32,000 bases of DNA from Candidatus Lokiarchaeum ossiferum (lineage in GTDB: Archaea; Asgardarchaeota; Lokiarchaeia; Sigyniarchaeales; Promethearchaeaceae): assembly GCA_025839675.1 (NCBI GenBank), contig CP104013.1, forward strand, positions 4,830,001 to 4,862,000, written 5' to 3'. Positions 5,959 to 32,000 of the stretch are shown piece after piece. Position numbers and translations under genes: made by a program. The notes under the pieces were generated by a model. The model did no database searches, was not told the DNA's origin, and saw only the letters and a list, made by a program, of their open reading frames with translations. Position 1 is the first letter of the stretch. Each line of letters begins with the position of its first letter.

Positions 5959-5976
5959 ATTTATAGGTGATATGTT

Positions 5977-6489: not shown

Positions 6490-6517
6490 ATTGTAAAATG
6501 AAATGGGGTAGAATAAA

Positions 6518-6832: not shown

Positions 6833-6833
6833 T

Positions 6834-9297: not shown

Positions 9298-9298
9298 G

Positions 9299-10684: not shown

Positions 10685-10687
10685 ATT

Positions 10688-10694
10688 GAGGTGA
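10688..10694 (+). promoter_or_regulatory. Shine-Dalgarno GAGGTGA for atpD
   Basis: GAGGTGA lies 4 nt upstream of ATG 10699. Confidence 0.6.
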
Positions 10695-10698
10695 AGAA

Positions 10699-11358
10699 AT
10701 GTCTTTCCAAAATGTAAAACCAACAAAACCAGAACTTGATCGGTTGAAGAAAAAACGTCAATTTTCTGTAAGGGGTGAAAATCTGCTTGAAATTAAGCGA
10801 GAACAATTACTTAATTCATTAAAAACCATATTAGATAAGAATTTCTCTATTCGCAGTGAAATGCGGTCTGAAATTCTCAAGGATATGGATTTATTGGAAA
10901 AAACATATGAAACAATTGGGAAACGAAAAGTAGATCGGATCTCTCGATTGAATGAAGTTACTCTTAAAACCTCTGTAGAAATTAACTATATCCATGAAAT
11001 GGGGATAGATGTTCCAAAACTTGAACTGCATTTTCAAGATAAACCTTTACCCTCATATTCGTATGGTGATACAACTCTACACCTTGATATATTATTGAAA
11101 CGATTGAAGACAACTCTTGGTCGTTTAATTGAAATTGCCGAAGTAGATAGTATGATGTACCGGTTAGCTGAAGACAATAAAAAAATTCAGCGAAGGATTG
11201 ATGCTTTGGATGATATCATTATTCCCCAACTTGATGGTAATATACATACTATTGAAGAAATTTTGAATGATGAAGAACGCGAAGAGTTTATTCGAATGAA
11301 GAAAATTAAAGAATTTTTAGAAGATGATGAAGCGGAAAAGAAAGCTAAAAGTGATTAA
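10699..11358 (+). CDS. atpD: A-type ATP synthase subunit D (central stalk)
   Basis: NVKPTKPELDRLKKKRQFSVRGENLLEIKREQL matches the PT+.EL..LK..L..A.+G..LL..KR. start of subunit D. 219 aa and helical. Confidence 0.9.
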   Translation: MSFQNVKPTKPELDRLKKKRQFSVRGENLLEIKREQLLNSLKTILDKNFSIRSEMRSEILKDMDLLEKTYETIGKRKVDRISRLNEVTLKTSVEINYIHEMGIDVPKLELHFQDKPLPSYSYGDTTLHLDILLKRLKTTLGRLIEIAEVDSMMYRLAEDNKKIQRRIDALDDIIIPQLDGNIHTIEEILNDEEREEFIRMKKIKEFLEDDEAEKKAKSD

Positions 11359-11359
11359 C

Positions 11360-13483
11360 ATGTTAACACCTGAAGATATGACTTACTTAGACATTGCTAT
11401 TCATAAAAGTAAGATCTCTGCATTTTTAAACGAAGTACCGAAACATCGCATACATATTGCTGAATTTAAAGAGCCTAAAGATAAATCTGCTCATCATATC
11501 CGGCGGGAACATAAGATTAATGATGATACGGAAATGATTCAGCATAAAATTAATGAAATTGAAGAAAGTATTATTTATTTTTTTCAGAAACTTGAAATTG
11601 ATCCTAAAAAACTATCAAAACCTGAATTAGATAAGCGAATTTTCTTTGAAGTTACTTCAGTTAATAACGCTATTGATATATTGCATGAAAAAGCTACCAA
11701 TGAAGCGAGACGAATTCGGGCTTATTATAATACTCTAGATAAATATGAAAAAGAACTTAAATTGAATAAGATGTTACGCCAAATTTATTCTTGGGTAGCA
11801 ACTTACTCTGCTACAAAAATTGCATTTGAATGGTTCAATCTATTGGAATTTCGATTGTTTTATATGAATTCATCAGAGTTTGTTGATATGGAGGTTGTTT
11901 TAGAACATGATGAACTTCCAATTGTTTTAGAATATAAAGAAATTTCGGATGATATTACAGCTTTTTTCATGATTTATTTCAAAGAACATCGTCAAAGTAT
12001 AAATGAAATTTGCCATGGTGCCAGTGAATTGACTGATTTTAAGGATCATTTTGATGATTTTGGTGTAAATCTTGATACGATTGATAAAGAGATCCATTTT
12101 GCAAAAGAGCGCTTAATAAAAGCAAATGAATCGATTCAAAAAGTCAAAAATGAGGCTTTAAGGTTTCGTGCTTATATGGAATTATTAGAAAATATCAAAA
12201 AGTATGAGTTAATTGAAATTCAATTCCGAGAAAGTTATGGTTCAGAAATTGTCCGAATGGAAGCTTTCATTCCAACTAAAAATGAAGAATTTATCTGCAA
12301 TTCTTTAGACAAAAAATTCCATAACTATATTAGAATAGCCGCCCGAGTTATTAAGAGAGATGCAATCAGTAATGAAAAACACCTTACAACTTCAAAATTG
12401 ATTGGTACAGATTCCGAGGATTATGATTATTTTACCGATAGATCTGATTCTGATGTGTCTTCCTCATCGATTCCCTCATTAATTAAACCGAAAAAAATAT
12501 TCAAACCTTTTCAATTATTAACACGATTATATGGTACAGCCAATTACTCTGAACTGGATCCTACATCCTTAGTCGCCCTTACATATCCTCTTCTTTTTGG
12601 ATTTATGTTCGGTGATATAGGTCATGGATTGATCTTGTGTACAGTAGGTTTAGTCTTAATTTTTCTAAATAGATCGGACAAAGAAAATTCCATGTATGAT
12701 GCAGGTTTCTTGTTCATATGGCTTGGAATTGCTGCAACTGGTGCAGGTGCATTATACGGTGAGTTTTTCGGATTTCCACTTGCTTATGCTGAGCATCTTG
12801 GATTTAATCCAATGCATGAAATTATTCCAGTTTTGAAAATTTTTGTTTTAGTGGGTGTTGCTCATATCTCATTAGGATGGTTATTATCTATGATCAATTT
12901 CATTCAAAAGAAAAGAGTATTCCTCGCAATTGCTGATCCATTCTTAAAGATTTTAATTCTTATTGGAGGAACCATAATGATTTTCACCTATATGTTCGAA
13001 ATTTCTGCTTGGGTTGCACCTCCATATCCAATATTACTTCCTGTAATCCCTACGCTATTGTTTGTTATTGTTAAACCTCTTGGCCGGATTTTTGGTATAA
13101 AGTATCTTCAAAAAGATTCTGTTGGTGAATTATTTGGAGAACAAGCTTTAGATTTGAGTGAAACTTATTTAGGTATTGTATCAAATGTAGCAAGTTACTC
13201 GCGTCTTCTTGCTCTTTCATTGGTTCATATGAGTTTAATGCTTGTTTTCACAACAATTGCGGATATTATATTGGAAAATGAATTTTTCGGGGATATTGTG
13301 GTTGTGTCAATTGTTCTAGTTATCGGAAACATTTTTGTTATTGTTTTAGAAACTCTGATGGCAGGTATTCATGCTTTACGGTTGACTTTTTATGAATTTT
13401 TTGGAAAATTTTTCCATGCTGATGGAGTTCCTTATTCATTCACAACAATTGATTCCGATTTTAGTTCTATCGAATTTGTGTAA
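11360..13483 (+). CDS. atpI: A-type ATP synthase subunit I (a-subunit homologue, stator/ion channel)
   Basis: 707 aa from ATG 11360 (GTGAT SD-like motif upstream, 1 nt after the atpD stop). Large soluble N-terminal half plus multi-TM C-terminal half. It contains VASYSRLLALSLVH, the conserved ASY.RL.ALSLAH motif that carries the essential Arg. Confidence 0.9.
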   Translation: MLTPEDMTYLDIAIHKSKISAFLNEVPKHRIHIAEFKEPKDKSAHHIRREHKINDDTEMIQHKINEIEESIIYFFQKLEIDPKKLSKPELDKRIFFEVTSVNNAIDILHEKATNEARRIRAYYNTLDKYEKELKLNKMLRQIYSWVATYSATKIAFEWFNLLEFRLFYMNSSEFVDMEVVLEHDELPIVLEYKEISDDITAFFMIYFKEHRQSINEICHGASELTDFKDHFDDFGVNLDTIDKEIHFAKERLIKANESIQKVKNEALRFRAYMELLENIKKYELIEIQFRESYGSEIVRMEAFIPTKNEEFICNSLDKKFHNYIRIAARVIKRDAISNEKHLTTSKLIGTDSEDYDYFTDRSDSDVSSSSIPSLIKPKKIFKPFQLLTRLYGTANYSELDPTSLVALTYPLLFGFMFGDIGHGLILCTVGLVLIFLNRSDKENSMYDAGFLFIWLGIAATGAGALYGEFFGFPLAYAEHLGFNPMHEIIPVLKIFVLVGVAHISLGWLLSMINFIQKKRVFLAIADPFLKILILIGGTIMIFTYMFEISAWVAPPYPILLPVIPTLLFVIVKPLGRIFGIKYLQKDSVGELFGEQALDLSETYLGIVSNVASYSRLLALSLVHMSLMLVFTTIADIILENEFFGDIVVVSIVLVIGNIFVIVLETLMAGIHALRLTFYEFFGKFFHADGVPYSFTTIDSDFSSIEFV

Positions 13484-16638: not shown

Positions 16639-17805
16639 TTATGGGAAGAGGAAATCATTCATTTCTTTGAGATCATTTTCAAGATTTTGACCCCAAGCAT
16701 GGATCCCACTCCGAAATTTATTTCCTACAACAATTGCACGTTGTTTGATGATAACTGGTTTACCATGAATGTCTTGATACACAACCGGAACTGGTTTTTC
16801 AGTAATTCCCCAGAGTAATAGCAATCCAGTCGGTTCTAACGTGCAATAAAAATAATCATCCAGCACTTTCATTGCATCTTGAATATGTTTTGCTGTCATC
16901 GGTTGATTTGATTTTGGAGTAACTCCTTCACTCAAAGCAAGTAAACTTCCTTCATCGAGGGTGTTTATTTGTTCTATGCTATCCATATAATCGACTTCAA
17001 TTAAACTTCCTCGGTAAGTTTGATGAACTTTTGAGTCCATCATTAGTTGAATTGCTCCCGATTGCCATCCAGCATATTTTTTTTCATGAGAATCCCGATC
17101 GACAAAGGTTAGGTCTGCGGGATGGGTATCATTAATATGCGGGAGTTTATTCTTTTGATTTAAAAACAAATTACTGCAGAATTGAAAGTTATAACCTCGG
17201 GCGCTAACAAGGTTCGTTGGAACAGTGGTTTGTTTTGCAATTAATTCTCCCAAGGATTTATGAAATTGATCTTGTCGAATTTTAAATCGGTTGTGAATTT
17301 CGCTTATTGGAGGGTTATTATCATCGTGGGTTGTATACCAATAACGGGTGGCTCTTATAGGATTTTGTTCACTTTTATCAATAAATTCATGATACCAATC
17401 AATAAAATCAAGTTCAATTAGGGGGACTTTATATTTATCGCAAACCTCTGAAGCATTGCATGATCGGTCTTTAGATTTATTACTAACAATTCCTTGTAAT
17501 ACAATTGGAGAATTCAAGGTATAAGATTTAACTTTTTCATACTGTTTTGCTTGAAATTCGCCTGTCGAAAAACTTCCTGAACCAAATATTAGATTTGAAA
17601 TTGGTTGGTTTTCTTCAAGTGAAATTAATGGCACGATAGAACAATTTAGATCACCGCTCATTTCATCCCATATATCTAAGCATTTATTACGCAATTCTAT
17701 GGGCGCCCATGCACGATTTTCCCATATTTTTTTGCTTAAATGATGTATTTTCTTTATACGTTCTTCGCTTTTTAATTTAGTTTCAGCCAGAAATTCTTCC
17801 ATCAT
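16639..17805 (-). CDS. Hypothetical protein with distant formyltransferase-fold-like motifs
   Basis: 388-aa ORF with good coding character. NLIFGSGSFSTGEF resembles the formyltransferase N-terminal strand-loop. LPHINDTHPADL resembles the N.HPSLLP catalytic loop but with altered spacing. YRGSLIEVDY...LDEGSLLA resembles the Asp-containing strand. This is weak and from memory only. Confidence 0.6.
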   Translation of the reverse strand: MMEEFLAETKLKSEERIKKIHHLSKKIWENRAWAPIELRNKCLDIWDEMSGDLNCSIVPLISLEENQPISNLIFGSGSFSTGEFQAKQYEKVKSYTLNSPIVLQGIVSNKSKDRSCNASEVCDKYKVPLIELDFIDWYHEFIDKSEQNPIRATRYWYTTHDDNNPPISEIHNRFKIRQDQFHKSLGELIAKQTTVPTNLVSARGYNFQFCSNLFLNQKNKLPHINDTHPADLTFVDRDSHEKKYAGWQSGAIQLMMDSKVHQTYRGSLIEVDYMDSIEQINTLDEGSLLALSEGVTPKSNQPMTAKHIQDAMKVLDDYFYCTLEPTGLLLLWGITEKPVPVVYQDIHGKPVIIKQRAIVVGNKFRSGIHAWGQNLENDLKEMNDFLFP

Positions 17806-17849: not shown

Positions 17850-18467
17850 ATGCATTCATCAGTACATTGGGGGCTTGGAATAATTATTGCTGGAATCACA
17901 TCCTTATATATTTCAGTTAATTTTTGGATTGTTGGTTTAATTATTTTGAGTTCAATTTTCGCGGATTTTGATATATTTTTAAGAAAATATGCCCAAAATG
18001 GCAATCACCGCATGCTCTTTACTCATTCTATTTATCTTCCTATGATCCTAATATTAATTGGATTTCTTTCTTCAAAAATTGTTATTATTGTAATGGGTTT
18101 TTCGTATTTAATCCATATTTTGATTGATCTTCTGGATTGGGGGACCAACGCCCTTTTTACAAATAGAATTTTTGGGATTCGCTTTTTACTTAAGAGAGAT
18201 GAGCATTTGAGAGTCCCTGAGATAATAGATCAAGAAAAAATACCTCAATGGTTTTTTGTTAAACGATACTATAACTCTGTCATTATGATTGGTATTGAAG
18301 TTTTTGTGAGCATTATCATGTTTATTACCTTATTTCTCTATATTCCCCAGTTTTGGTATTTTCTGGCAGGTTATTTTTTGACAATGATATTTCACATCAG
18401 CGAATACCTTGAATTAAAACATTTGAGCCAAGGAGGCTCTCCACGTATAAAATTACTCAAACATTAA
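17850..18467 (+). CDS. DUF457/YdjM-like membrane-bound metal-dependent hydrolase
   Basis: 205 aa, multi-TM. N-terminal MHSSVHWGLG, then NHRMLFTHSIYLP (HR..THS) and HILIDLLDWGT, matching the His-rich DUF457 signatures. Confidence 0.6.
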   Translation: MHSSVHWGLGIIIAGITSLYISVNFWIVGLIILSSIFADFDIFLRKYAQNGNHRMLFTHSIYLPMILILIGFLSSKIVIIVMGFSYLIHILIDLLDWGTNALFTNRIFGIRFLLKRDEHLRVPEIIDQEKIPQWFFVKRYYNSVIMIGIEVFVSIIMFITLFLYIPQFWYFLAGYFLTMIFHISEYLELKHLSQGGSPRIKLLKH

Positions 18468-23073: not shown

Positions 23074-23688
23074 ATGGTCATAGAAAAAGGAAATAATCCC
23101 TTTGATTTATTTGAAGTGTTTCAAGAAGCGTTTCCTGGTGAAATATCTTCCATTTTTAAAGTTTATTTGCAATTCAATCACTTAAAACGTGTTTATCGAA
23201 AAGGTTGGCTAAAAAGTGGAATTTCGCCTCAAATTTGTGAATCTGATGCGGATCACTCCTTAGGCGTTGCTTTCTTGGGATTAATTTTAGCACAAAAATA
23301 CGCCCCATCATTAAATCAAGCGAAACTTTTGAAAATGGCAATTATCCATGAATTAGGAGAAACCGTAGTTGGAGATATCACCCCTGATGAGGATTATCCT
23401 ACCCGAAAACAAGAAGAATTTTCAGTCGTCCAAAAAATTCTACACGATTTACCAAATAGTAGAGAATTGGTTGGACTCTACTCAGAATTTGAGAATAAAT
23501 CGTCTCCAGAAGGAAAGTTTATGAAGGAAATTGATTCGCTAGAAATGGTCTTTCAAGCCTTGATTTACGAAAAGGAGTTTAATTTTGACTCTATTCAATT
23601 TTTAGAGTCTGTGCAAAAAAAAATTATGAACCCACATCTAAAAACAGTATTCGAGCAAATTAAAAAAATTAAAAAATTAGAAAGTTGA
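23074..23688 (+). CDS. HD-domain phosphohydrolase (YfbR/HDDC2-like 5'-nucleotidase family)
   Basis: ESDADHSLGVAF plus AIIHELGETVVGDITP (the H...HD/HE...D pattern of YfbR-type HD proteins). 204 aa. Confidence 0.8.
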   Translation: MVIEKGNNPFDLFEVFQEAFPGEISSIFKVYLQFNHLKRVYRKGWLKSGISPQICESDADHSLGVAFLGLILAQKYAPSLNQAKLLKMAIIHELGETVVGDITPDEDYPTRKQEEFSVVQKILHDLPNSRELVGLYSEFENKSSPEGKFMKEIDSLEMVFQALIYEKEFNFDSIQFLESVQKKIMNPHLKTVFEQIKKIKKLES

Positions 23689-26601
23689 GCGCAGAACTTC
23701 AATAATGCTCCATTTTTCCACTTTTCTGGTAATAAAGAACATTCCTACTATGGAGATTGTAATTGACACTAAGAATGTGCTTAGGAGTGTACCGATATTC
23801 ACTGCTGTCACCACTGGCATTTCTGAAATGATGGCAACATTGGTTTGCATTAAATATGCAATTAACCATCCTACAACAGCTCCTAATGAACCGGATGATA
23901 ACATCACAGTTACTGCTTCAAACATCAACATTGATCGCATTTCATGGGGTTTCAACCCCATTGCACGCATTATTCCGATCTCATACATTCTTTCCATTAA
24001 GGTTGAGTACATCGATGCAATAAGTCCAAATAAACTCACTAAAATCGAGAAGAAAAGGATGGCTTGCATGATCAAATTTGAAGTATTGTTATTTTCTTCC
24101 ATCATGTTGATCAAGGTAACTGATTCTTCCAAAAGAAAGTCATAATCGTCTCCAAAGTAGTTTTCAATGTATGTTTGAACATCTTGAATGTTTTCATAAT
24201 CATTATTGGCTAAATTAATAAGGATTTTGTCAATTACCATTTCTGGATCTGTTGGTTCACCCCAATTCATGAGACGGCTATAATCTTCAAGATTTACTAA
24301 TATTCCTGCACCAGTGTTTAAACTTAATTCAGAAGAACGAAAATTCCAGACTCCGGGCATTCCTCTTGATACGCCCACAACGGTAAAGACTGAAATGTTT
24401 TTGTAACCTCCATTGTCTGGATCGCTCATTGTAATACGAATATCTGCAGGTAATTCAGTTATTCCTAAATGATCCGCTAAAATCTTGGCAATAATACAAT
24501 GATTTGAATTTTGCATTACTTGATTTATTGCTTCAGCGGAGCTTCCAGTATCCCGATCCCACATTAAAAGAGATTGATCAACGGTTTCATAATAATTCTC
24601 ATCAATTCCAATTAAACTACTATAAAAACTATTATATCCTCCGATATCACCTATATATGCTTCATATTTCGGAATGTCACCAAATAAATTCCCAAAGAAA
24701 TCTCCCATATCGCCATCAAATCCATCTTCCGACATAGAAAATATCATGGATGTTAGTCTGGTCATATCTAATGAATTATGGTTGATAATGGCTGTATTTT
24801 TAATTCCCGGCAATTCTTGAAGTTCTTCATATAATTTCATGTTGACTGCATCATTTTGATCAGGATTGCCAGAATTCGACATGACCAGATCTGCTCCATA
24901 TTGAAATTGAAGGTTCATGGCTGAATTTGCAGATTGCATTTCTAATTGGGATGATATAAAGAATATAAATGAGAAGGTTAATGAAAACATGACAATTGTG
25001 GAAAGATTACGTCTTCGATATCGATAAAGATTAATTCTATACACTGGATAATATTTTCGCATAAAGGGTTTGAAAATGTTTGCAATTAATCCTTCTAGGA
25101 CAGGAACAAAACCGATCGTAGCAAAAACTAACCCAATTAATACAGCAAGTAACAATCCTATCAATACATAATTGGTTACATTGGGTCCACCAGATCCTGT
25201 AAGTAATCGGGGGAGAATTAAGAAGAGAAAAATCCCCACTGCTGCTATTCCTAATCCAATTCCCATTAATTTTCCATTAATAGTTCCTTCTTTAGTAATT
25301 TTATATTCATCTTTGGTTGAATTTCGACTTGGATCTATCGCATCAGAAATTACCACTTTACCTGCTTTCATTGCTGGGATGATAGATACGATAGATGTGA
25401 CCCCTACTCCAATAAGAATAGATCGTAATATTGTGATAGGAAGGATTATGAAATCTAATGAAATTCTCCACAACTGAAAATACGTAAATGTCCAAGTTAA
25501 TAAGGGCGGTGCCGCAAGAGCTCCTACCAGTGTACCTATAAATGTGCCCAATATTGACATGATAATCCCCGAAATCAACACCATTTTAAATGTGAATTTT
25601 CGCTTTCCCCCTAAAACACGTAAAACTCCAAATTCTCTAACTCTTTCTTCAACCGATGTGGTCAAAATTGAATTAATTAAGATTCCCGTTATTAACATTG
25701 AAAAGAATGAAATAAAACTGAAAGTCATTGTCAAAGTCATTGTCTGCTGTTCAGAGTTCTGTAATTCTTGTAGTTTAGGAAGAGTGACACTAAATTCAAA
25801 ACCTACTTCTATTTGGATTTGCTCGGCTATTAATCTCATTTCTCGCGTTGTTCCCTGAACATCTCGGGTATCATAGATCAATTCTGGATTTGCTAAAGTG
25901 GTGTGTATGGAATTTACCTTTCCTATTTGATTCATAAATTGTTGTAACCAATGTAATTCGAAAATAATAAGGGTTGATTCGATGCGTGAAAATCTTAGGT
26001 CTTGATCAACAATGGCTTGGATTGACAACGATGCCTCGTAGCTCGCATATTTGATATCAATAACATCTCCGACCTTTAAATTAAATAATCTGGCGGCTCC
26101 ACGTGTCAGAATACATGAGCCATCCTTTATTGGACCTTTAAAAAGTTCATCGATTCTATCATATTCTGCATTATCGTCGCATAACCAAAGGTTTCCCATT
26201 GCTCCAGAATCTTGTTCCAAAGTAGAATTAATTCCATAGCCAATAATTTGTTTTTTAATTGTTTTATTAATCTCATTATCAAAATGTGATATTGAGATAA
26301 AAGTGTTCAATCTCGGATAATAAGTCTCAATTCCTTCAATTTTACCCCTTAATCGGTCTTCCACAATATTTTGATCGAAATATGGGTCAAAATTGAAATC
26401 TTGAGCAGAAAGTTTTTGAAAAACAATATCACTTGAACCCGATTCATTTGTTGCTTGATCAAGATATGAATAGCTTAGAGAATCTGCCAAACATCCTACA
26501 ATTGTCAGTAATAAGATTGAGATTGCGATCCCACTGATACCAAAAATAGTTTTGACTTTTTGTCGTTTTAGATCTTGTAATGCGTATTTAAACACGTCCA
26601 T
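23677..26601 (-). CDS. Fused double FtsX/MacB-type ABC permease (10 TM, two large ectodomains)
   Basis: 974 aa. Typical N-terminus YALQDLKRQKVKTIFGISGIAISILLL. There are two repeats of TM + 250-290-aa ectodomain + 3 TM, carrying VEERVREFGVLRVLGG and LMERMYEIGIMRAMGL (ER..E[FI]G..R..G). Two extra linker TMs lie at about res 445-505. Confidence 0.85.
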   Translation of the reverse strand: MDVFKYALQDLKRQKVKTIFGISGIAISILLLTIVGCLADSLSYSYLDQATNESGSSDIVFQKLSAQDFNFDPYFDQNIVEDRLRGKIEGIETYYPRLNTFISISHFDNEINKTIKKQIIGYGINSTLEQDSGAMGNLWLCDDNAEYDRIDELFKGPIKDGSCILTRGAARLFNLKVGDVIDIKYASYEASLSIQAIVDQDLRFSRIESTLIIFELHWLQQFMNQIGKVNSIHTTLANPELIYDTRDVQGTTREMRLIAEQIQIEVGFEFSVTLPKLQELQNSEQQTMTLTMTFSFISFFSMLITGILINSILTTSVEERVREFGVLRVLGGKRKFTFKMVLISGIIMSILGTFIGTLVGALAAPPLLTWTFTYFQLWRISLDFIILPITILRSILIGVGVTSIVSIIPAMKAGKVVISDAIDPSRNSTKDEYKITKEGTINGKLMGIGLGIAAVGIFLFLILPRLLTGSGGPNVTNYVLIGLLLAVLIGLVFATIGFVPVLEGLIANIFKPFMRKYYPVYRINLYRYRRRNLSTIVMFSLTFSFIFFISSQLEMQSANSAMNLQFQYGADLVMSNSGNPDQNDAVNMKLYEELQELPGIKNTAIINHNSLDMTRLTSMIFSMSEDGFDGDMGDFFGNLFGDIPKYEAYIGDIGGYNSFYSSLIGIDENYYETVDQSLLMWDRDTGSSAEAINQVMQNSNHCIIAKILADHLGITELPADIRITMSDPDNGGYKNISVFTVVGVSRGMPGVWNFRSSELSLNTGAGILVNLEDYSRLMNWGEPTDPEMVIDKILINLANNDYENIQDVQTYIENYFGDDYDFLLEESVTLINMMEENNNTSNLIMQAILFFSILVSLFGLIASMYSTLMERMYEIGIMRAMGLKPHEMRSMLMFEAVTVMLSSGSLGAVVGWLIAYLMQTNVAIISEMPVVTAVNIGTLLSTFLVSITISIVGMFFITRKVEKWSIIEVLRSTF

Positions 26602-29600
26602 TGTTGCTGTTATCCTCCTTTTTGCTTATAATTTTCTCTGTAATCTCTTTAAATTGCTTCGTTGGTATCTTATTTGCTATATCCTCAATTAATTCTTCTT
26701 CTTTTTCAAATGAATCAGTGATTTGATTGTCGTGTTCTCGGGAAGATATGATCTCTTGTTTCGCCTTTGAAAAGTCTTTCAGGAGTAATAGTTCACACGA
26801 TTTACATTTATGGCCTGTGGATTCTTCGTCAAAATAACTCCACTTCTTACAAGCGGGACAAAATTTGGCAATGAACAAATTATCTTTCTTACATGACGGA
26901 CAAAATATTTCAAAATCAGGGGCCAAATAGTATTTTTTGCATTTCTTGCAATAGAGTTTATAGGGTTGGTCTTTTTCCCAATTTGGATCGGTTTGACTTG
27001 AGATTATTTCAGCTTCTTGAAAATTCTGATTTTTCTCAAATTTCCGTTGATTATACCGCTCTATCATTGATAGGCTTTTAATAATTTCACCCGCTAAAAG
27101 TTTCTTCTTAATTTTTCTCTCATGAAGAATTTTTGCTCCTACCATTATTCCGATAAGTGCGATTCCTGCTGAAATCATTACTATTCCAAGTGTGGATATC
27201 GGATTGTGAACTTCTACGACTATTTTTTCTACCTCACGATTTCCTTGGATATCTACAACAACACAAATAATTTCTATTTTTTCTCCATTTTCAAATTCAG
27301 TGGTATCTAAACTATATATTATTTTATTATCAATTATATCAACTTCATAGAGGTTATTATTTATCCAAAATTCTGTTCGACTGTTATCTATGGATGAATC
27401 ATCTAGAATTAATATTTCAATAGAAATTTCTCCCGAAATTTCATCTCCACTTTCAAGTCCGATGAATTGAATTGTTGGGGGTAAATAATCTTTCGTATGG
27501 TTCATATCTATGACTAAATTAGAAATTTTCCAGCCAGAATTCGCAATTTGGGTTCCAATATCATCTGAGGTAAATTTAAACCGGAAAATTGCTTCACTTC
27601 CCATAAAATCGGATATATCAATCGAAACCTTCTCTATACCTGTTCCTTTTGTGTCTTCATCATAGGTGTGTAATCGTTTCCATGATTTTCCAACATCAAC
27701 TGAAATAAAAACTTCTGCATAATCTCCATATTCTTCTCCATCTGTCTCAAAACGAAGTCGATGTTCAAAGTTCAAGAAAATTTCATTCGTTCCTTCCAAT
27801 TTTATTAGAGGTGAGATCAAATTTGCAGTTATATTATGTCCATAACCCAAGTAATTTCCTTCTCCGCAGTACCAGCTTCCTTGAACTTTCTTGTTTTCGA
27901 AAATTGTTGGTTGATGCCAGCTACTATTAGATTTAACCCACAATGACGGTGTGTTTGGAGAATTTGCTTCGATTATTGTCCATAATTCAGGTTTTATTTC
28001 CGTTGTTATTGGAAAATTTTCTGCAGTGGCTTCTTTAAATTGAAGTTCTGATTGCCATGCTGTAGATTTTTCATATTTACCATCAAAAGCAATAAATCTA
28101 AAACTTGTGTTATGCATTAAATACACTGAAATTACACAAACAAACACAATTTCATTCCGAATATCCATTGAATTCATTTTCTTTGGATTATATCGACCAT
28201 ATTTGTTTGTCATGTTATAAATATTCTCGTCAATTTCGAGATTTACCCATAAAGGCATATCACCATCTAAATCAGAATACGCAACTTGGAAGGTATAGGT
28301 TCCGAATTTCGTTTCTGTATTAGATTCAAAGAAAGGTTGGTCAACATTAGGTTGCGATAAATCATGAACAGGTGAAAGAATTGGAGAATACATATTTATA
28401 CCAGAAATATCCTCTATTGTAAAATGATCTAACATTACTCCTCCGCCATATACTTCATTTTTATTTTCCCAATGTGTGAGGAACCGAATTTGAGTGTAGT
28501 TGTTCATATGTTCGGATAAATCATATTCTCGATAAATCCAATCACTTTCTATATCGCTAAAATAATCAAGTTGTTCCCATCCGGTTCGATTTATTCTAAT
28601 TTCGATTGAAAAATCATCCAGTTCTCCAAGACTTAAACGGAATCCAATTTTTAATGTGGGGTTGATCGATTCACTCTCATTTAAAAATACAATAGGGGAT
28701 GTTAATTCATAGGTTTCGGAAGTATTGCCAGTATAATATATGGGTTTTTGGTCTATTTCAAATACTGATCCATTAAAACCTTCTAAGTGAGAATATCCAC
28801 AATATAATGCTTTCCATGAATTCTCGCTTTCCGACACATTGCGAAATTCTAACGTGTCTGAAACCGAAATATGGTTCCATCCTGCAACGGAAGGTGTTGT
28901 CATATCTTGAAATATTATGTTTTTTTGTTCATTATCCAGATCCCAAAGTTTATCTTCATGATCAAAATCTGTTGTATATCCATAATCTGCTTGATTATGA
29001 ATTGGGTTGATAAAAATCACATTTTCGTCTGGATCTACATAATCTGTCTGATATTCTCCTATAATAGATGTGAAATTATATGAAAATGAACCTGATTGTG
29101 GAAAATCCAGTAGGGCATAGTAAAGGCATCCATTAGTATAATTTCTATCAGAAGCGATTCTTTTTATCATAGGTACGGGTCCCATTGAATTATTGAAATG
29201 TATATATAATTCACTTGCGGGATAATTTTCTGCATTGGTATAGTTTACTTCAAAATAATAGCTGTCTAGAATATCTTGATATTCGTAGGAAGATTCAATT
29301 GTGTAATTTGCATTTTGTAATATGGTAGTGTTAGAATAGAGTTGTTCTGTTACATTTAATTCTGCGGTACCCTCTCCAGATATTGCCTTGGCGATCAAAT
29401 AATATGTACTAGTTTCATGAAGGTTGGAATAGTAAAAATATTCATCTATGCCACCTGTTTGAGGTTCTGCTGCAAGAATCACCGGTCGACCATATTGATC
29501 TCCTAAACTATCATACAAGTAGAGATCTGCATCCAAGTCCGCAAAAAATCCGCCTTCAATATTTAATTCGAATCGATATAGTTTATATTGTTCTAAAGTT

Positions 29601-31615
29601 ATATTAATTGCATAAACATGGGTTGCTTGAGGGTCGTCAGATGAACTTGTTAAAGAAATGCCTATAGTATCATTAATGGGGTAACTTCGCGTAAATAGAT
29701 CACCAATTGCTGAAGGGTTTACTCTTCCATAACCCTCATTTAAATCGGCAGTACCACGATTAATTTCTGGTGATTCCAAGGATTCATCGTAAGAAGTGCT
29801 TGGATCATCTTCTCGTTGCAAATTTGTTTCTGAAGCTGTCATGAGAAGCAATGCTTTTGCTCTTAAAGCATCATAACCTGCAGTAGAATTCCCATTTTGC
29901 CACATTCCAAAGAGTTCGACTATATTGCTGTATATACCTGCGACAATTCCCGCAGATACGGAAGTTCCACATATCGGAGATATGTCATTAAGTATCTCTT
30001 CGGTAATTTGTCCATTATCTTCTCCATCATTAGTGTCTGCGGCTAAAATCATTGCGGAATTTTGTAAATAACTCCCTCCTGGTGCGACGATATCAGGTTT
30101 AGCTACATCGTCTGAATCATACCAAAACTTACCTTGACCATCCAAATTTTCACCTTGACTACTATAATAGGTAATTTGATCTTGATCATTTGTTGCTCCT
30201 ACAACAATTGCCTTTTGATTTTTTGCAAGCATATTCATGTTGGAATTGATTCCGTTATTGCCTGCTGCAATAATCACCATTGTACCATTATCAATGACGT
30301 TATCTATCAAACTTGATATTTTTTGAGCAAGTAATTCATCCATATCGAAATTTCCAACGCTAAGAACCGTCACAAAAATACGATATTTCGTATTGTTATG
30401 CCAGACCCATTCTAAAGCAGAAAGTAAATCTGATGAATATCCTAGCCCAGTCGAATTTAAAACTTTTAATGAAGTTATTTTAGTTTCTGGGGCAATACCA
30501 GCGAAATTTGCAAATCCCTTTTCATAATTTTCAGGAGTAAAGGTAATATTAAGTTGGAGATCAAATTGAGGGTTTTTTCCCAGTTCTACTGAATATACAA
30601 TGTAGATGTCAAATAAACCCACTTTTTTACTTTCATCAAAAGGTCCAGAAGTATCCCAAGATACGTCTAAAGAATTAGATGCGCTAGTATTAATTAATTG
30701 ACCATCTTTATAAAATTTTAAATTATATTTCGAGAGATCGATTATATTACTCATCTTTCCCTTAATTTCAAGGTTATCTAATGCTTCAGAGTCCATTTCA
30801 AAGGAAGCTAATTTAAGAGAATAGTCTTGGGGAATAATGTGATGAGGGTAAAAAAGATCAAAATGATTAAACCTACCTCCAACGCTTATATAATATCCAT
30901 CCCCGCTGTGATTCATCTCAAAAGATTTATTTGCAGATCCAACTGCAATGGATGCAATGCTAGTTCCATGTCCATTAGAATCAATTGGTTCTGTCTCATT
31001 TTCTTCTGAAAAATCTTTCCAACCAATAATAGATCTAGAGAAGTTTAAGTCTCCAAACCCATTTTCAAATCCAATGAATGCATCATCAATACCAGTATCT
31101 AAAAATGCAATCGAACCATTAGATGTTCCATTAAATATCATATTATCTCCTACTGTTGCAGGATAGATATTCAGCTGGTCATGAACTGTATTCATCTGAG
31201 TTTGGATCATTGAATCTTCTACAACTGTCATATTAGGGGTTTGAGATGTAAATAATTTTAAGTTACCTTCAGAATTATTTATCTGGCCAGCAAAACCAAC
31301 GATATTTTCCCAAGGACCTTCCATCAAAATACCCCCACAATTGGAAAAGTTGCTTAAAATGTCATTCATATTAGATTCCATAGAATCAAACAAAAAGACA
31401 TATCTATGAGATTCATTATCATAAACTGAGTTATCTTCTAAAATACTCTGAGATTGAATTTGTGTTACTGGAGTTATTATCTCTTCACTTAATTCTATAT
31501 TTTTGTTGGTGGAATAATCCAATGCTTCTGTCAAATCAAAAATTGGTGTTGAAAAGAGAATCATTACAAATATTATGATTATATTCATAGGCTTTTTTTT
31601 AGACAATGCTTTCAT
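26588..31615 (-). CDS. Giant bitopic subtilisin-like (S8) serine protease with PPC-like and duplicated beta-sandwich modules, C-terminal TM and cytoplasmic double zinc ribbon
   Basis: Triad contexts: IAFLDTGID (Asp codon 31099-31097), NGHGTSIASIAVG (His 30970-30968), CGTSVSAGIVAG (Ser 29962-29960). Oxyanion context AAGNNG. N-terminal signal/anchor MKALSKKKPMNIIIIFVMILF. ATG 31615 is preferred because of the ATGA overlap with the upstream stop and GGAGGAG 8 nt upstream; the ORF-track start 31675 has no SD. Confidence 0.9.
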   Translation of the reverse strand: MKALSKKKPMNIIIIFVMILFSTPIFDLTEALDYSTNKNIELSEEIITPVTQIQSQSILEDNSVYDNESHRYVFLFDSMESNMNDILSNFSNCGGILMEGPWENIVGFAGQINNSEGNLKLFTSQTPNMTVVEDSMIQTQMNTVHDQLNIYPATVGDNMIFNGTSNGSIAFLDTGIDDAFIGFENGFGDLNFSRSIIGWKDFSEENETEPIDSNGHGTSIASIAVGSANKSFEMNHSGDGYYISVGGRFNHFDLFYPHHIIPQDYSLKLASFEMDSEALDNLEIKGKMSNIIDLSKYNLKFYKDGQLINTSASNSLDVSWDTSGPFDESKKVGLFDIYIVYSVELGKNPQFDLQLNITFTPENYEKGFANFAGIAPETKITSLKVLNSTGLGYSSDLLSALEWVWHNNTKYRIFVTVLSVGNFDMDELLAQKISSLIDNVIDNGTMVIIAAGNNGINSNMNMLAKNQKAIVVGATNDQDQITYYSSQGENLDGQGKFWYDSDDVAKPDIVAPGGSYLQNSAMILAADTNDGEDNGQITEEILNDISPICGTSVSAGIVAGIYSNIVELFGMWQNGNSTAGYDALRAKALLLMTASETNLQREDDPSTSYDESLESPEINRGTADLNEGYGRVNPSAIGDLFTRSYPINDTIGISLTSSSDDPQATHVYAINITLEQYKLYRFELNIEGGFFADLDADLYLYDSLGDQYGRPVILAAEPQTGGIDEYFYYSNLHETSTYYLIAKAISGEGTAELNVTEQLYSNTTILQNANYTIESSYEYQDILDSYYFEVNYTNAENYPASELYIHFNNSMGPVPMIKRIASDRNYTNGCLYYALLDFPQSGSFSYNFTSIIGEYQTDYVDPDENVIFINPIHNQADYGYTTDFDHEDKLWDLDNEQKNIIFQDMTTPSVAGWNHISVSDTLEFRNVSESENSWKALYCGYSHLEGFNGSVFEIDQKPIYYTGNTSETYELTSPIVFLNESESINPTLKIGFRLSLGELDDFSIEIRINRTGWEQLDYFSDIESDWIYREYDLSEHMNNYTQIRFLTHWENKNEVYGGGVMLDHFTIEDISGINMYSPILSPVHDLSQPNVDQPFFESNTETKFGTYTFQVAYSDLDGDMPLWVNLEIDENIYNMTNKYGRYNPKKMNSMDIRNEIVFVCVISVYLMHNTSFRFIAFDGKYEKSTAWQSELQFKEATAENFPITTEIKPELWTIIEANSPNTPSLWVKSNSSWHQPTIFENKKVQGSWYCGEGNYLGYGHNITANLISPLIKLEGTNEIFLNFEHRLRFETDGEEYGDYAEVFISVDVGKSWKRLHTYDEDTKGTGIEKVSIDISDFMGSEAIFRFKFTSDDIGTQIANSGWKISNLVIDMNHTKDYLPPTIQFIGLESGDEISGEISIEILILDDSSIDNSRTEFWINNNLYEVDIIDNKIIYSLDTTEFENGEKIEIICVVVDIQGNREVEKIVVEVHNPISTLGIVMISAGIALIGIMVGAKILHERKIKKKLLAGEIIKSLSMIERYNQRKFEKNQNFQEAEIISSQTDPNWEKDQPYKLYCKKCKKYYLAPDFEIFCPSCKKDNLFIAKFCPACKKWSYFDEESTGHKCKSCELLLLKDFSKAKQEIISSREHDNQITDSFEKEEELIEDIANKIPTKQFKEITEKIISKKEDNSNNGRV
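26613..26619 (-). promoter_or_regulatory. Shine-Dalgarno AGGAGGA for the permease, embedded in the protease 3' end
   Basis: The reverse complement of tcctcct lies 11 nt upstream of the permease ATG (26601-26599). Confidence 0.55.
26795..26950 (-). other. Cytoplasmic double zinc ribbon (4 x CxxC) of the protease
   Basis: CKKC-x12-CPSC-x10-CPAC-x14-CKSC. The first Cys codon is at 26950-26948. Confidence 0.7.
27125..27199 (-). other. C-terminal transmembrane helix of the protease
   Basis: ISTLGIVMISAGIALIGIMVGAKIL is followed by HERKIKKK (positive-inside). Confidence 0.7.
29900..31130 (-). other. S8 catalytic domain (approximate bounds) containing a ~140-aa insertion after the catalytic His
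   Basis: Asp, His, Asn and Ser motifs appear in subtilase order. HGTSIASIAVGSANK is separated from FAGIAPETKITSLKVL by about 140 residues. Confidence 0.75.
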
Positions 31616-32000
31616 GATCCATTCTCCTCCGTTGTGAGTTCTTCTAAGAATTCTTTTAGATTTTTCTTTTTCCATGCAATATCTCTCAAGGATTGGCCAA
31701 AAAGGAGAGATTCCCTTCTCTCTAATTCTAAATCTTCCCTTGAATATTGTGATTTTTTATAATATGTAAATCCGATTACACTCGCTCCCACAATTATAGG
31801 AAGAATTATAATCAAAATGGATTCAAAATAAGATTGCCTAACCATTATTGTCATAACTGGGCTTTCGATAGTCCTTTTATAAATATAACAATAGTTTAAT
31901 TCTGCAGGGTTGATCTGATAGATTCCATTTTTGTTTAAGGTTCGTAAATGATATGTGAAGGTGATAGAATCACCCGGTTTTAACAATTCATAATTTCTAA
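31612..32000 (-). CDS. C-terminal part of a membrane-anchored surface protein (CARDB/DUF11-like beta-sandwich, TM, short cytoplasmic tail); 5' end outside the window
   Basis: The frame stays open to the window edge. LKPGDSITFTYHLRTLNKNGIYQINPAELNY looks like a CARDB/DUF11-type strand pattern. It is followed by ILIIILPIIVGASVIGFTYY (TM) and a charged tail. Its stop overlaps the protease ATG. Confidence 0.5.
   Translation of the reverse strand, partial: RNYELLKPGDSITFTYHLRTLNKNGIYQINPAELNYCYIYKRTIESPVMTIMVRQSYFESILIIILPIIVGASVIGFTYYKKSQYSREDLELERRESLLFGQSLRDIAWKKKNLKEFLEELTTEENGS
31624..31630 (-). promoter_or_regulatory. Shine-Dalgarno GGAGGAG for the protease
   Basis: The reverse complement of ctcctcc lies 8 nt upstream of ATG 31615, inside the upstream ORF. 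Confidence 0.55.

What the first reader, a model, noticed from the sequence alone, without database searches (positions are those of the whole stretch)
23677..32000. Translationally coupled cassette: surface beta-sandwich protein, then a ~1675-aa bitopic S8 protease, then a double-FtsX (MacB-type) permease with no ATPase in view
Seen in sequence:
- Three consecutive minus-strand genes have no intergenic space.
- The upstream stop and the protease start share ATGA (31612-31615), behind GGAGGAG.
- The permease ATG lies 14 nt inside the protease 3' end, behind AGGAGGA.
- All three products are membrane-anchored with large extracytoplasmic parts.
- The permease is a fused pair of MacB-type halves with the ER..E[FI]G..R..G motif.

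Established knowledge:
- FtsX/MacB-type ABC systems act by mechanotransmission.
- FtsEX-type members control extracellular hydrolases (EnvC/amidases, PcsB, CwlO, RipC).
- Archaeal COG0577 permeases commonly sit with a COG1136 ATPase and a COG1361 CARDB-like surface protein. This last point is recalled from memory (for example the MJ0795-0797 neighbourhood).

Inference:
- A giant subtilase appears to have been recruited between the surface protein and the permease.
- This suggests an ABC-driven module that positions, activates or gates a cell-surface protease in an archaeon.
- The downstream neighbour is a convergent HD gene. Any ATPase must therefore lie beyond 32000 or elsewhere in the genome.
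Basis: partly seen in the sequence, partly recalled or inferred. Interest (0 to 1): 0.72.

Follow-up and report, generated by a model that had tools for sequence, protein, structure and literature searches.

The report
Asgard ABC-powered surface protease operon
The region is the tail end of a five-gene operon, found so far only in Asgard archaea (all 80 related genomes examined have it), that joins an ATP-driven MacB/YbbP-type membrane machine to a giant cell-surface subtilisin-like protease and a giant surface protein, and it probably couples ATP use inside the cell to protein cutting at the surface.

Summary
Three tightly packed minus-strand genes encode the C-terminus of a ~1317-aa anchored surface protein ("Surf"), a 1675-aa S8 protease and a 974-aa double-FtsX permease.

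The window comes from Candidatus Lokiarchaeum ossiferum. Extending the contig shows a five-gene cassette: LolD/MacB/FtsE-type ATPase, a first double-FtsX permease (954 aa), Surf, the protease, then the second permease.

In 80 species-level genome loci, all Promethearchaeota, the order is identical. Fifty-two are complete, 28 are cut by contig ends, and none breaks the order.

The protease keeps an invariant Asp/His/Ser triad and a conserved cytoplasmic double zinc-ribbon tail. A predicted structure of the permease best matches E. coli YbbP, the permease of the YbbAP-TesA transporter-hydrolase complex.

The most likely function is a type VII ABC mechanotransmission machine that feeds or gates a surface protease. 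That step is inferred, not shown.

The surface-protein gene is the one cited in the literature as the Asgard "TRAP-beta" homologue.

Verdict: real and conserved, and I found no published description of it. It is a new variant of a known kind.

The parts
31612..32000 (-). 3' end (last 128 codons plus stop) of the ~1317-1330-aa surface protein 'Surf'. It holds the end of the TRAP-beta/DUF11-like Ig domain, the single C-terminal TM helix (about 31759-31821) and a ~50-aa cytoplasmic tail. The rest of the gene lies beyond the window.
   Evidence: Pfam TRAP_beta scores 34.8 bits (cut-off 22.4) at residues 1137-1226 of the full protein. TM by hydropathy. The profile of 16 orthologues matches only TRAP-beta chains in the PDB.
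31612..31630 (-). Junction Surf/protease: GGAGGAG (31624-31630), then ATGA (31612-31615), in which the protease ATG overlaps the Surf TGA.
   Evidence: Read directly.
26588..31615 (-). Gene for the 1675-aa membrane-anchored S8 (subtilisin-like) protease.
   Evidence: 100% identical to NCBI 'S8 family serine peptidase [Ca. Lokiarchaeum ossiferum]'.
29696..31168 (-). S8 catalytic domain (residues ~150-640). Asp173 is at 31097-31099, His216 at 30968-30970, Asn453 is the oxyanion residue, and Ser552 is at 29960-29962. A ~135-residue all-beta insertion sits between His216 and the rest of the core (residues ~230-365, 30521-30928).
   Evidence: D173, H216, N453 and S552 are invariant in 13 sequences down to 28% identity. 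The PDB profile search gives Tk-SP 3afg/9ues at E~1e-40, with the match split around the insertion. The insertion is predicted as beta strands (moderate to low confidence).
31241..31411 (-). Probable N-terminal propeptide (residues ~69-125, beta-alpha-beta-beta-alpha).
   Evidence: Secondary structure of the model (pLDDT 54-74). The best fold match is ProN-Tk-SP 3afg, which includes the propeptide. Inconclusive.
27206..29668 (-). Non-catalytic ectodomain (residues ~650-1470). In order: a PPC/beta-jelly-roll-like module (~650-780), Ig-like modules, two MAM/reelin-B-like jelly rolls (~912-1070 and ~1226-1376), and a membrane-proximal Ig-like module.
   Evidence: Pfam Reelin_subrepeat-B, InhA-like_MAM, Big_7 and Big_13 in family members. 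Conserved columns. MAM and meprin fold hits (low-confidence model). Domain borders are my reading of the alignment.
27122..27190 (-). C-terminal transmembrane helix of the protease (residues 1476-1498).
   Evidence: Hydropathy.
26789..26950 (-). Cytoplasmic double zinc-ribbon of the protease tail: CxxC-x12-CxxC, then CxxC-x14-CxxC.
   Evidence: C1556, C1559, C1572, C1575, C1586, C1589 and C1604 are invariant across both deep clades. Pfam Zn_ribbon_15 hits one member.
26588..26619 (-). Junction protease/permease: AGGAGGA (26613-26619), permease ATG at 26599-26601, protease stop at 26588-26590. The overlap is 14 nt.
   Evidence: Read directly.
23677..26601 (-). Gene for the second fused double-FtsX (YbbP-like, 10-TM) type VII ABC permease, 'Perm2', 974 aa. 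Ectodomain 1 is residues ~46-288 (25738-26466). Ectodomain 2 is residues ~554-839 (24085-24942). The FtsX TM bundles are 25357-25737 and 23719-24084. The linker TM5-6 is 25072-25281.
   Evidence: AF2 model with pLDDT 76.7. Best PDB match is E. coli YbbP 9ge7_A at E=2.9e-19 over the full length, then LolE/LolC, MacB and BceB.

Best explanation
The window holds the last two and a bit genes of a five-gene, ~16-kb operon of Asgard archaea.

Gene order and products:
1. A LolD/MacB/FtsE-type ABC ATPase with a conserved ~100-aa C-terminal extension.
2. Perm1, a 10-TM fused double-FtsX permease.
3. Surf, a ~1320-aa C-terminally anchored surface protein whose last Ig-like domain is TRAP-beta/DUF11-like.
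4. A ~1650-aa C-terminally anchored, catalytically intact S8 protease with a cytoplasmic double zinc-ribbon tail.
5. Perm2, a paralogue of Perm1.

Shown: the gene order, its strict conservation, the domain identities, the intact catalytic and ATPase motifs, and the YbbP-like fold of Perm2.

Inferred:
- Each fused permease takes an ATPase dimer, as YbbP takes two YbbA, and forms a type VII ABC mechanotransmission engine.
- The Porter/Sabre-type ectodomains of the permeases dock the membrane-proximal parts of the two giant ectoproteins.
- ATP binding and hydrolysis in the cytoplasm are converted into ectodomain movements that hand membrane-proximal substrates to the protease. These substrates are most plausibly anchored surface proteins, Surf included. 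The same movements may also open the protease.
- In that case the cassette is an ATP-controlled surface-protein processing or shedding machine, an archaeal protease counterpart of the bacterial YbbAP-TesA transporter-hydrolase complex.
- The invariant zinc-ribbon tail of the protease and the ATPase extension may tie the protease physically to the cytoplasmic motor.
For: Operon structure and conservation:
- Searches show ATPase-Perm1-Surf-Prot-Perm2 on one strand in L. ossiferum, with gaps of 15 nt or less or overlaps.
- Searches show the same order in P. syntrophicum and in relatives whose protease is only 28-30% identical, with different flanking genes.
- Searches cover 80 species-level loci: 52 complete, 28 cut by contig ends, none breaking the order.

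Components:
- ATPase: LolD 232 bits, MacB 217 bits, FtsE 210 bits. Walker A, signature, Walker B-Glu and H-loop are readable in the sequence, and the C-terminal extension is conserved in 57 orthologues.
- Permeases: FtsX twice, and 10 TM with ectodomains between TM1-2 and TM7-8. This is the topology reported for YbbP (PMC12646458, section 10).
- The best structural match of the Perm2 model is YbbP 9ge7_A. Isolated MacB and LolC/E periplasmic domains also match.
- The Perm2 ectodomains contain many invariant residues.
- Protease: triad and oxyanion residues invariant, and closest to archaeal Tk-SP. The cytoplasmic cysteines are invariant.

Precedents:
- YbbAP-TesA is a 2:1:1 type VII ABC-hydrolase complex proposed to extract hydrophobic molecules from the membrane and present them to the hydrolase.
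- FtsEX controls extracellular hydrolases through EnvC (PMC7668044 and PMC11627006 abstracts).
Against: - There is no direct evidence of physical contact between any permease and either ectoprotein. No complex prediction, co-evolution analysis, transcript or proteome data could be obtained.
- The protease model is of low confidence (pLDDT 60).
- The catalytic domain is N-terminal, about 900 residues of sequence away from the C-terminal anchor. It need not sit near the permease ectodomains unless the chain folds back or the N-terminal signal sequence stays uncleaved.
- Cell-anchored S8 proteases can work without any ABC partner.
- Why two permeases are needed is unexplained.
- A distant variant (L092) has Perm1-like and Perm2-like genes side by side with no protease or Surf. 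The permease pair can therefore exist without them.
Confidence: 0.55

Rival explanations
1. An FtsEX-like pure regulator. The permeases move no substrate. ATP-driven ectodomain movements only switch the bound protease between an auto-inhibited and an active state, as FtsEX does for EnvC/amidases, PcsB, RipC or CwlO.
For: - The operon is conserved and contains a hydrolase.
- A type VII ATPase of the FtsE/LolD type is present.
- The conserved cytoplasmic tail of the protease suggests inside-out control.
Against: - The Perm2 fold is closest to YbbP, LolC/E and MacB, which handle substrates. No FtsX structure appears among the 50 best matches.
- No coiled-coil adaptor of the EnvC/PcsB type is encoded in the cassette.
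- A probable N-terminal propeptide suggests ordinary autocatalytic activation (weak).
Confidence: 0.2
2. Co-regulated but mechanistically independent genes. The S8 enzyme is a cell-bound nutritional protease that digests environmental protein for these peptide- and amino-acid-fermenting archaea. The ABC system is an efflux or antimicrobial-peptide resistance pump, as its automatic annotations say.
For: - Source annotations read 'ABC-type antimicrobial peptide transport system permease'.
- The many MAM-, PPC- and Ig-like binding modules on the protease fit binding of external macromolecules.
- From my own knowledge, not tested here: cultured Lokiarchaeia grow on peptides and amino acids.
Against: - The gene order is invariant across 80 genomes, while protease identity falls to 28% and the flanking genes change. 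That is unusual for unrelated functions.
- The protease and Surf are sandwiched between the two permease genes rather than appended.
- The invariant cytoplasmic zinc-ribbon tail has no role in a simple ecto-protease.
Confidence: 0.15
3. A biogenesis or quality-control system for two giant envelope proteins. Surf and the protease are structural components of the S-layer-less Asgard surface coat. The ABC engines help to fold, position, extract or recycle them, and the protease matures Surf.
For: - Both ectoproteins are very large, anchored and always co-encoded.
- LolCDE-type relatives extract anchored proteins from membranes (fold hits).
- No S-layer protein was detected in the P. syntrophicum proteome (PMC11284389).
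Against: - Both proteins have Sec-type N-terminal signals and a C-terminal anchor, so they need no dedicated exporter.
- No abundance data show that they are major coat proteins.
- This reading overlaps the best explanation and is not cleanly separable from it.
Confidence: 0.1

Closest known systems
E. coli YbbAP-TesA (type VII ABC transporter-lipid hydrolase complex; PDB 9GE6-9GE8; PMC12646458)
   Same: - A fused, pseudosymmetric 10-TM double-FtsX permease with Porter/Sabre-type ectodomains between TM1-2 and TM7-8.
- A separate LolD/MacB-type ATPase.
- A serine hydrolase encoded next to the transporter genes.
- YbbP is the best structural match of the Perm2 model.
   Different: - The partner here is a 1675-aa membrane-anchored S8 protease with a cytoplasmic zinc-ribbon tail, not a small soluble SGNH esterase.
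- There are two paralogous permeases and a second giant ectoprotein.
- The host is an archaeon with a single membrane.
- Sequence identity to YbbP is only ~12%.
- A physical complex has not been shown.
FtsEX with EnvC/amidases, PcsB, RipC or CwlO
   Same: A type VII ABC ATPase plus an FtsX-fold permease governing an extracytoplasmic hydrolase by mechanotransmission (abstracts).
   Different: - FtsX is a 4-TM homodimer, not a fused 10-TM protein.
- It works through coiled-coil adaptors on peptidoglycan hydrolases, and no such adaptor or substrate exists here.
- FtsX structures are not among the top fold matches.
LolCDE and MacAB-TolC
   Same: The fold of each permease half and of the ectodomains, and the ATPase family. 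LolCDE extracts membrane-anchored proteins.
   Different: - The halves are separate chains there (LolC + LolE, or MacB2) and not fused.
- Their partners are LolA or MacA/TolC.
- NCBIfam scores are far below the family cut-offs.
Tk-SP, the subtilisin-like protease of Thermococcus kodakarensis (PDB 3AFG, 9UES)
   Same: It is the closest solved relative of the catalytic domain (E~1e-40). It has an N-propeptide plus a subtilisin domain plus a C-terminal beta-jelly roll.
   Different: - Tk-SP is a ~660-aa secreted enzyme.
- It has no 135-aa insertion, no ~800-aa module array, no TM anchor and no zinc-ribbon tail.
- It is not known to me to have an ABC context.
Eukaryotic TRAP-beta (SSR2), Pfam PF05753
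   Same: The last Ig-like domain of Surf, followed by a TM helix and a short cytoplasmic tail, matches the TRAP-beta luminal domain. The P. syntrophicum orthologue DSAG12_01731 is cited as the TRAP-beta homologue.
   Different: - The match covers ~90 of ~1320 residues.
- The gene sits in an ABC/protease operon, not with Sec61, OST or other TRAP genes.
- Another study uses a different MK-D1 protein as TRAP-beta.

Membership tests
Type VII (MacB/FtsX-fold) ABC transporter permease | FtsX-type TM bundle with a large extracytoplasmic domain between the first and second TM helix of each unit | tested here: met
   Pfam FtsX twice. Hydropathy shows 10 TM with ~245-aa and ~285-aa loops after TM1 and TM7. 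AF2 model.
Type VII (MacB/FtsX-fold) ABC transporter permease | Extracytoplasmic domain of the Porter/Sabre type | tested here: met
   The Perm2 model matches the isolated periplasmic domains of MacB (3ftj), LolE (5udf) and LolC (6f49) and full-length YbbP. The model pLDDT of 76.7 is moderate, and subdomains were not dissected individually.
Type VII (MacB/FtsX-fold) ABC transporter permease | Cognate cytoplasmic ATPase of the LolD/MacB/FtsE family | tested here: met
   A 342-aa ATPase is the first gene of the operon. NCBIfam gives LolD, MacB and FtsE as top hits, all below the equivalog cut-offs.
Type VII (MacB/FtsX-fold) ABC transporter permease | Mechanotransmission: ATP-driven ectodomain movement without transmembrane substrate passage | not testable with these tools
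   Needs biochemistry or structures in different nucleotide states.
YbbP-like fused permease working with a hydrolase (YbbAP-TesA kind) | Single chain with two FtsX units joined by a TM5-6 linker (10 TM) | tested here: met
   compared with the topology described in PMC12646458.
YbbP-like fused permease working with a hydrolase (YbbAP-TesA kind) | Hydrolase bound on top of the ectodomains with its active site facing the transporter pocket | not testable with these tools
   No multimer prediction was available. Only gene adjacency is shown.
YbbP-like fused permease working with a hydrolase (YbbAP-TesA kind) | Partner is a TesA-type SGNH esterase | tested here: not met
   The partner is an S8 protease. 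This is an analogue, not a member of the YbbAP-TesA system.
Peptidase family S8 (subtilases) | Match to the family profile above its curated threshold | tested here: met
   PF00082 at 94.7 bits against a cut-off of 21.8. All 13 family members match.
Peptidase family S8 (subtilases) | Catalytic Asp-His-Ser in that order, plus the oxyanion Asn | tested here: met
   D173, H216, N453 and S552 are invariant and align to the Tk-SP motifs.
Peptidase family S8 (subtilases) | N-terminal propeptide (I9-like intramolecular chaperone/inhibitor) | tested here: inconclusive
   No Pfam I9 hit. A beta-alpha-beta-beta-alpha element at residues ~69-125 appears in a low-confidence model, and there is a fold hit to ProN-Tk-SP.
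Type VII secretion mycosin | Match to TIGR03921 above its cut-off, and an ESX gene context | tested here: not met
   28.8 bits against a cut-off of 278.75. No ESX genes are nearby.
FtsEX-type hydrolase regulator | 4-TM FtsX dimer that binds a coiled-coil adaptor or hydrolase (EnvC, PcsB, RipC, CwlO) | tested here: not met
   The permeases are fused 10-TM proteins. No coiled-coil adaptor gene is in the cassette. FtsX structures are not among the top fold hits.
TRAP-beta (PF05753) | Profile match above threshold | tested here: met
   34.8 bits against a cut-off of 22.4, at residues 1137-1226 of Surf. PDB TRAP-beta chains at E~1e-3 are the best hits, with only one weaker DUF11 'cell surface protein' match below them.
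TRAP-beta (PF05753) | Small (~180-aa) single-domain subunit acting with Sec61 and TRAP-alpha/gamma | tested here: not met
   Surf is 1317-1330 aa and is encoded in the ABC/protease operon in all loci. Association with the translocon was not tested.
Within Asgard the three gene types do co-occur.

The most novel reading that the evidence does not exclude
The cassette may be an Asgard-specific inside-out signalling and remodelling machine. The state of the cytoplasm would be read by the ATPase extension and by the protease's zinc-ribbon tail, perhaps under the influence of the neighbouring Rag/Gtr-type GTPase seen in the Lokiarchaeum/Promethearchaeum clade. The two ABC engines would convert that state into regulated proteolysis and shedding of the S-layer-less surface coat, for example during protrusion growth or contact with syntrophic partners. 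Its TRAP-beta-like, C-terminally anchored component would then represent the prokaryotic context from which the eukaryotic translocon subunit TRAP-beta was derived.
Probability: 0.1. Interest if true: 0.85.

Novelty: new variant of a known kind. Interest (0 to 1): 0.6.

Why it matters
- Type VII ABC machines that drive extracytoplasmic hydrolases are so far a bacterial theme (FtsEX-EnvC, and since 2025 YbbAP-TesA). This would be an archaeal case with a protease as the hydrolase and with two engines.
- It is one of the most rigidly conserved large gene clusters for surface proteins in the archaeal group closest to eukaryotes. The envelope of these cells lacks a recognised S-layer and is poorly understood.
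- Two cultured species, L. ossiferum and P. syntrophicum, carry the cassette, so the prediction can be tested.
- The cassette gives a concrete genomic context to the gene cited as the Asgard 'TRAP-beta' eukaryotic signature protein. Surveys that use PF05753 would pick up this 1,300-aa surface protein of an ABC/protease operon, which calls for caution in reading it as a translocon subunit.

Tried and rejected
- Mycosin/type VII secretion: the score is far below the cut-off and there is no ESX context.
- Lantibiotic-type LanP plus immunity ABC: no precursor or biosynthetic genes occur in any locus, and the cassette sits among housekeeping genes.
- Gtr1/RagA-type GTPase upstream of the ATPase as a sixth member: it is present only in the 4-5 closest genomes (7 loci, 3 of them duplicates of one genome), so it is local synteny.
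- Structure of the protease N-terminal 1167 residues: mean pLDDT is 60, too low for domain-level conclusions beyond the S8 core, the beta-sandwich modules and a possible propeptide.
- Looking for relatives outside Asgard:
  - The word-indexed searches found only 14 proteins for the protease and 16 for Surf; those that carry a source name are all Promethearchaeota.
  - A full phmmer scan of 1.84 billion representatives with the non-catalytic 1036 residues found only ~25 clusters at E<=1e-30. The rest were single-domain hits.
  - Among these hits, every protease relative that carries a source name is Promethearchaeota; the only non-Asgard name was a distant permease homologue (Verrucomicrobiae).
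- Distant permease homologues: L093 is a generic ATPase plus a single fused permease. L092 has the permease pair only.
- Literature: no paper on this cassette with the term sets tried. The supplement of the P. syntrophicum proteome paper is not held, so expression could not be checked.
- The sigma-70 promoter/terminator scan was not run because it does not apply to archaea.
- The plus-strand ORFs inside the permease gene (23705-24145, 25172-25477, 25544-25858) lie antisense to a conserved gene. I treated them as spurious.

Full report
**Observation**

The window has about 33% G+C. Its last 8.3 kb carries three consecutive minus-strand reading frames:
- 23677-26601, 974 aa.
- 26588-31615, 1675 aa. 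The longest ORF starts at 31675.
- A frame that enters from beyond position 32000 and stops at 31612.

- ATGA at 31612-31615 joins the upstream stop and the protease start, behind GGAGGAG at 31624-31630.
- The permease ATG at 26601 lies 14 nt inside the protease gene, behind AGGAGGA at 26613-26619.

Pfam assigns Peptidase_S8 (E=8.4e-27) to the long protein and two FtsX domains (E=1.1e-28) to the 974-aa protein. NCBIfam shows ADOP/MacB/LolCE-type similarity below the family cut-offs. The downstream HD-domain gene is convergent.

One refinement concerns the protease start.

**Source and full extent**

The permease is 100% identical to a protein of Candidatus Lokiarchaeum ossiferum. Contigs carrying it show that the window stops inside a five-gene, same-strand cluster:
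1. A 342-aa ABC ATPase.
2. A first fused double-FtsX permease, Perm1 (954 aa, 29% identical to the second).
3. A 1317-1330-aa protein, Surf, of which the window holds the last 128 residues.
4. The protease.
5. The second permease, Perm2.

Gaps between the first three genes are about 13-14 nt, and the last two junctions overlap. It is of the LolD/MacB/FtsE type. Its Walker A, signature, Walker B-Glu and H-loop motifs are readable, and its ~100-aa C-terminal extension is conserved in 57 orthologues.

**Conservation**

The same five genes in the same order occur in several places:
- Promethearchaeum syntrophicum MK-D1.
- Metagenomic relatives whose protease is only 28-30% identical. Their flanking genes are quite different: Ham1, ribosomal proteins S15 and S3Ae, in place of HD and metallophosphatase.

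I scanned one genome per species of GTDB with the protease alignment. It returned 92 relatives; the 80 loci kept are all Promethearchaeota by record title, apart from seven untitled 'uncultured archaeon' records and one 3-kb contig labelled 'bacterium'. I then ran tblastn with the five L. ossiferum proteins against these loci:
- 52 loci have the complete cassette in order.
- 28 are truncated by contig ends but consistent.
- None violates the order.

Two deep clades are visible. Some record titles name Thor-, Hod-, Odin- or Hermodarchaeota. The proteases of three such records are 68-69% identical to each other, so these labels cannot all be right. I claim only 'Asgard', not presence across Asgard classes.

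More sensitive searches gave no relatives with the same architecture outside this group:
- The word-indexed search found 14 proteins.
- A full phmmer scan of 1.84 billion representatives with the non-catalytic 1036 residues found about 25 clusters at E<=1e-30. Everything weaker was a single-domain hit.
- Of the protease relatives looked up, the only one with a source name is Promethearchaeota; the rest are unnamed.

**Anatomy of the protease**

From the N-terminus:
- A signal-like hydrophobic segment (residues 8-32).
- A probable propeptide (residues ~69-125). Its beta-alpha-beta-beta-alpha pattern comes from a low-confidence model whose best fold hit is ProN-Tk-SP.
- An S8 catalytic domain with D173, H216, N453 and S552 invariant in 13 sequences. 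It is closest to Thermococcus Tk-SP (E~1e-40). A conserved ~135-residue all-beta insertion follows the catalytic His.
- About 800 residues of beta-sandwich modules: PPC/jelly-roll-like, Ig-like, and two MAM/reelin-B-like.
- One TM helix (residues 1476-1498).
- A ~175-residue cytoplasmic tail with seven invariant cysteines forming two CxxC...CxxC zinc ribbons.

A conserved cytoplasmic metal-binding module is not expected in a simple ecto-protease.

**Anatomy of the permeases**

Both have ten hydrophobic segments, with ~245-aa and ~285-aa loops after TM1 and TM7. An AlphaFold2 model of Perm2 built on 42 orthologues has pLDDT 76.7 and pTM 0.67. Its matches in the PDB are:
- Best, over the full length: E. 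coli YbbP (9ge7_A, E=2.9e-19).
- Next: LolE/LolC, MacB and BceB.
- Also the isolated periplasmic domains of MacB, LolE and LolC.

The published YbbP topology is the same. It has 10 TM, Porter/Sabre ectodomains between TM1-2 and TM7-8, coupling helices after TM2 and TM8, and two ATPase subunits per permease (PMC12646458).

**Surf**

Surf has a signal peptide, about 1,100 residues with few profile matches, DUF11-type repeats, and a final Ig-like domain. That domain matches Pfam TRAP_beta above threshold (34.8 bits against 22.4; residues 1137-1226). A TM helix and a ~50-aa tail follow.

A profile of 16 orthologues finds only eukaryotic TRAP-beta chains in the PDB (E~1e-3), plus one DUF11 protein.

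The P. syntrophicum orthologue is DSAG12_01731 (QEE15904.1). One source names it 'Translocon-associated protein beta', and PMC11284389 cites it as the TRAP-beta homologue of that organism. Another study collects TRAP-beta candidates by PF05753 hits (PMC12411855). A third uses a different MK-D1 protein as TRAP-beta (PMC11417166, supplement).

**How it most likely works**

Shown: a rigidly conserved operon that combines a complete type VII ABC motor, two YbbP-like permeases, an apparently active anchored protease and a second giant anchored protein.

Inferred, by analogy with the two known ways in which type VII ABC systems serve extracytoplasmic hydrolases:
- In YbbAP-TesA the transporter is proposed to extract hydrophobic molecules from the membrane and present them to the bound hydrolase.
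- In FtsEX the transporter acts as a signal transmitter that activates hydrolases.

The fold of Perm2 is closest to the substrate-handling members and FtsX is not among the best matches. I therefore favour a YbbAP-TesA-like arrangement:
- Each permease, with an ATPase dimer, holds the membrane-proximal part of an ectoprotein.
- ATP-driven ectodomain movements deliver membrane-proximal substrates to the protease. These are plausibly anchored surface proteins, including Surf. Pure gating is the main alternative.
- The zinc-ribbon tail and the ATPase extension are candidates for a cytoplasmic link.

My confidence that the five products work together is about 0.75. For the overall mechanistic statement it is 0.55.

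Open problems:
- Why two permeases are needed.
- Where the N-terminal catalytic domain sits relative to the membrane.
- A distant variant with the permease pair alone (L092). It shows that the pair can exist without the ectoproteins. It also gives no support to stepwise 'recruitment' of the protease next to a pre-existing surface protein.

**Rivals**

1. FtsEX-like allosteric gating only (0.2).
2. Co-regulated but independent nutritional protease plus efflux or resistance pump (0.15). This is disfavoured by the invariant sandwiching of the two ectoprotein genes between the permease genes and by the cytoplasmic tail.
3. Biogenesis or quality control of two coat proteins (0.1).

Mycosin-type and lantibiotic-type readings were rejected.

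**Comparison and novelty**

The individual genes are annotated in public records as S8 peptidase, ABC transporter permease, ABC ATPase, and hypothetical protein or TRAPB. I found no paper describing the cassette or its conservation, within a library that does not hold everything.

It works like a type VII ABC-hydrolase system and meets the structural criteria for a type VII permease and an S8 protease. It is not a member of the YbbAP-TesA or FtsEX systems, because the partner, size, anchoring, duplication and host all differ. I rate it a new variant of a known kind, with interest 0.6.

Hence 'partly supported'.

Noticed in passing
window 31612-32000 (minus) and L005 6030-10004: The surface-protein gene of the cassette is the gene cited as the Asgard 'TRAP-beta' eukaryotic signature protein in P. 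syntrophicum (DSAG12_01731). Only ~90 of ~1320 residues match PF05753, and the gene always sits in the ABC/protease operon. Another paper uses a different MK-D1 protein (WP_147662978.1) as TRAP-beta.
   Followed up: partly
L004 7076-8617; L005 476-1966 (outside the window, upstream of the ATPase): A ~500-aa Gtr1/RagA-type small GTPase is encoded directly upstream of the cassette's ATPase in L. ossiferum, P. syntrophicum, Harpocratesius and two close MAGs (48-50% identity). It is absent from the other loci, so this is local synteny only.
   Followed up: yes
L092 10001-15964: A distant metagenomic relative has a Perm1-like (27% identity) and a Perm2-like (30%) fused permease side by side. There is no Surf, protease or adjacent ABC ATPase. 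The organism is unknown and appears to be high in G+C.
   Followed up: partly
L009, L010, L011 and other JBHL* records among L012-L091: MAGs titled Thorarchaeota, Hodarchaeota and Odinarchaeota carry cassette proteases that are 68-69% identical to each other, and at least L009 and L010 also share downstream neighbours. The taxon labels in these record titles are probably unreliable.
   Followed up: partly
window 31615 vs 31675 (minus): NCBI annotates the protease with a start 20 codons upstream (1695 aa), overlapping the Surf gene by 64 nt. Orthologue alignment and the GGAGGAG-ATG arrangement favour the 1675-aa start.
   Followed up: yes
window 4915-13483 (plus): An A/V-type ATP synthase gene cluster: the C/AC39 subunit, two short ORFs without Pfam hits, then the A, B, D and I subunits.
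   Followed up: no
window 1942-3864 (plus): A hybrid PAS-histidine kinase with two receiver-domain stretches. A VIT-family transporter gene lies at 68-1030.
   Followed up: no
window 16639-17805 (minus) and 17850-18467 (plus): A 388-aa and a 205-aa ORF, called as genes in the source contig, have no Pfam match.
   Followed up: no
L004 8958-9986 (ATPase, outside the window): The cassette ATPase carries a conserved ~100-150-aa helical C-terminal extension beyond the ABC domain (342 aa in the Lokiarchaeum clade, ~392 aa in the other clade). It has a faint DUF7347 hit and no known function.
   Followed up: partly
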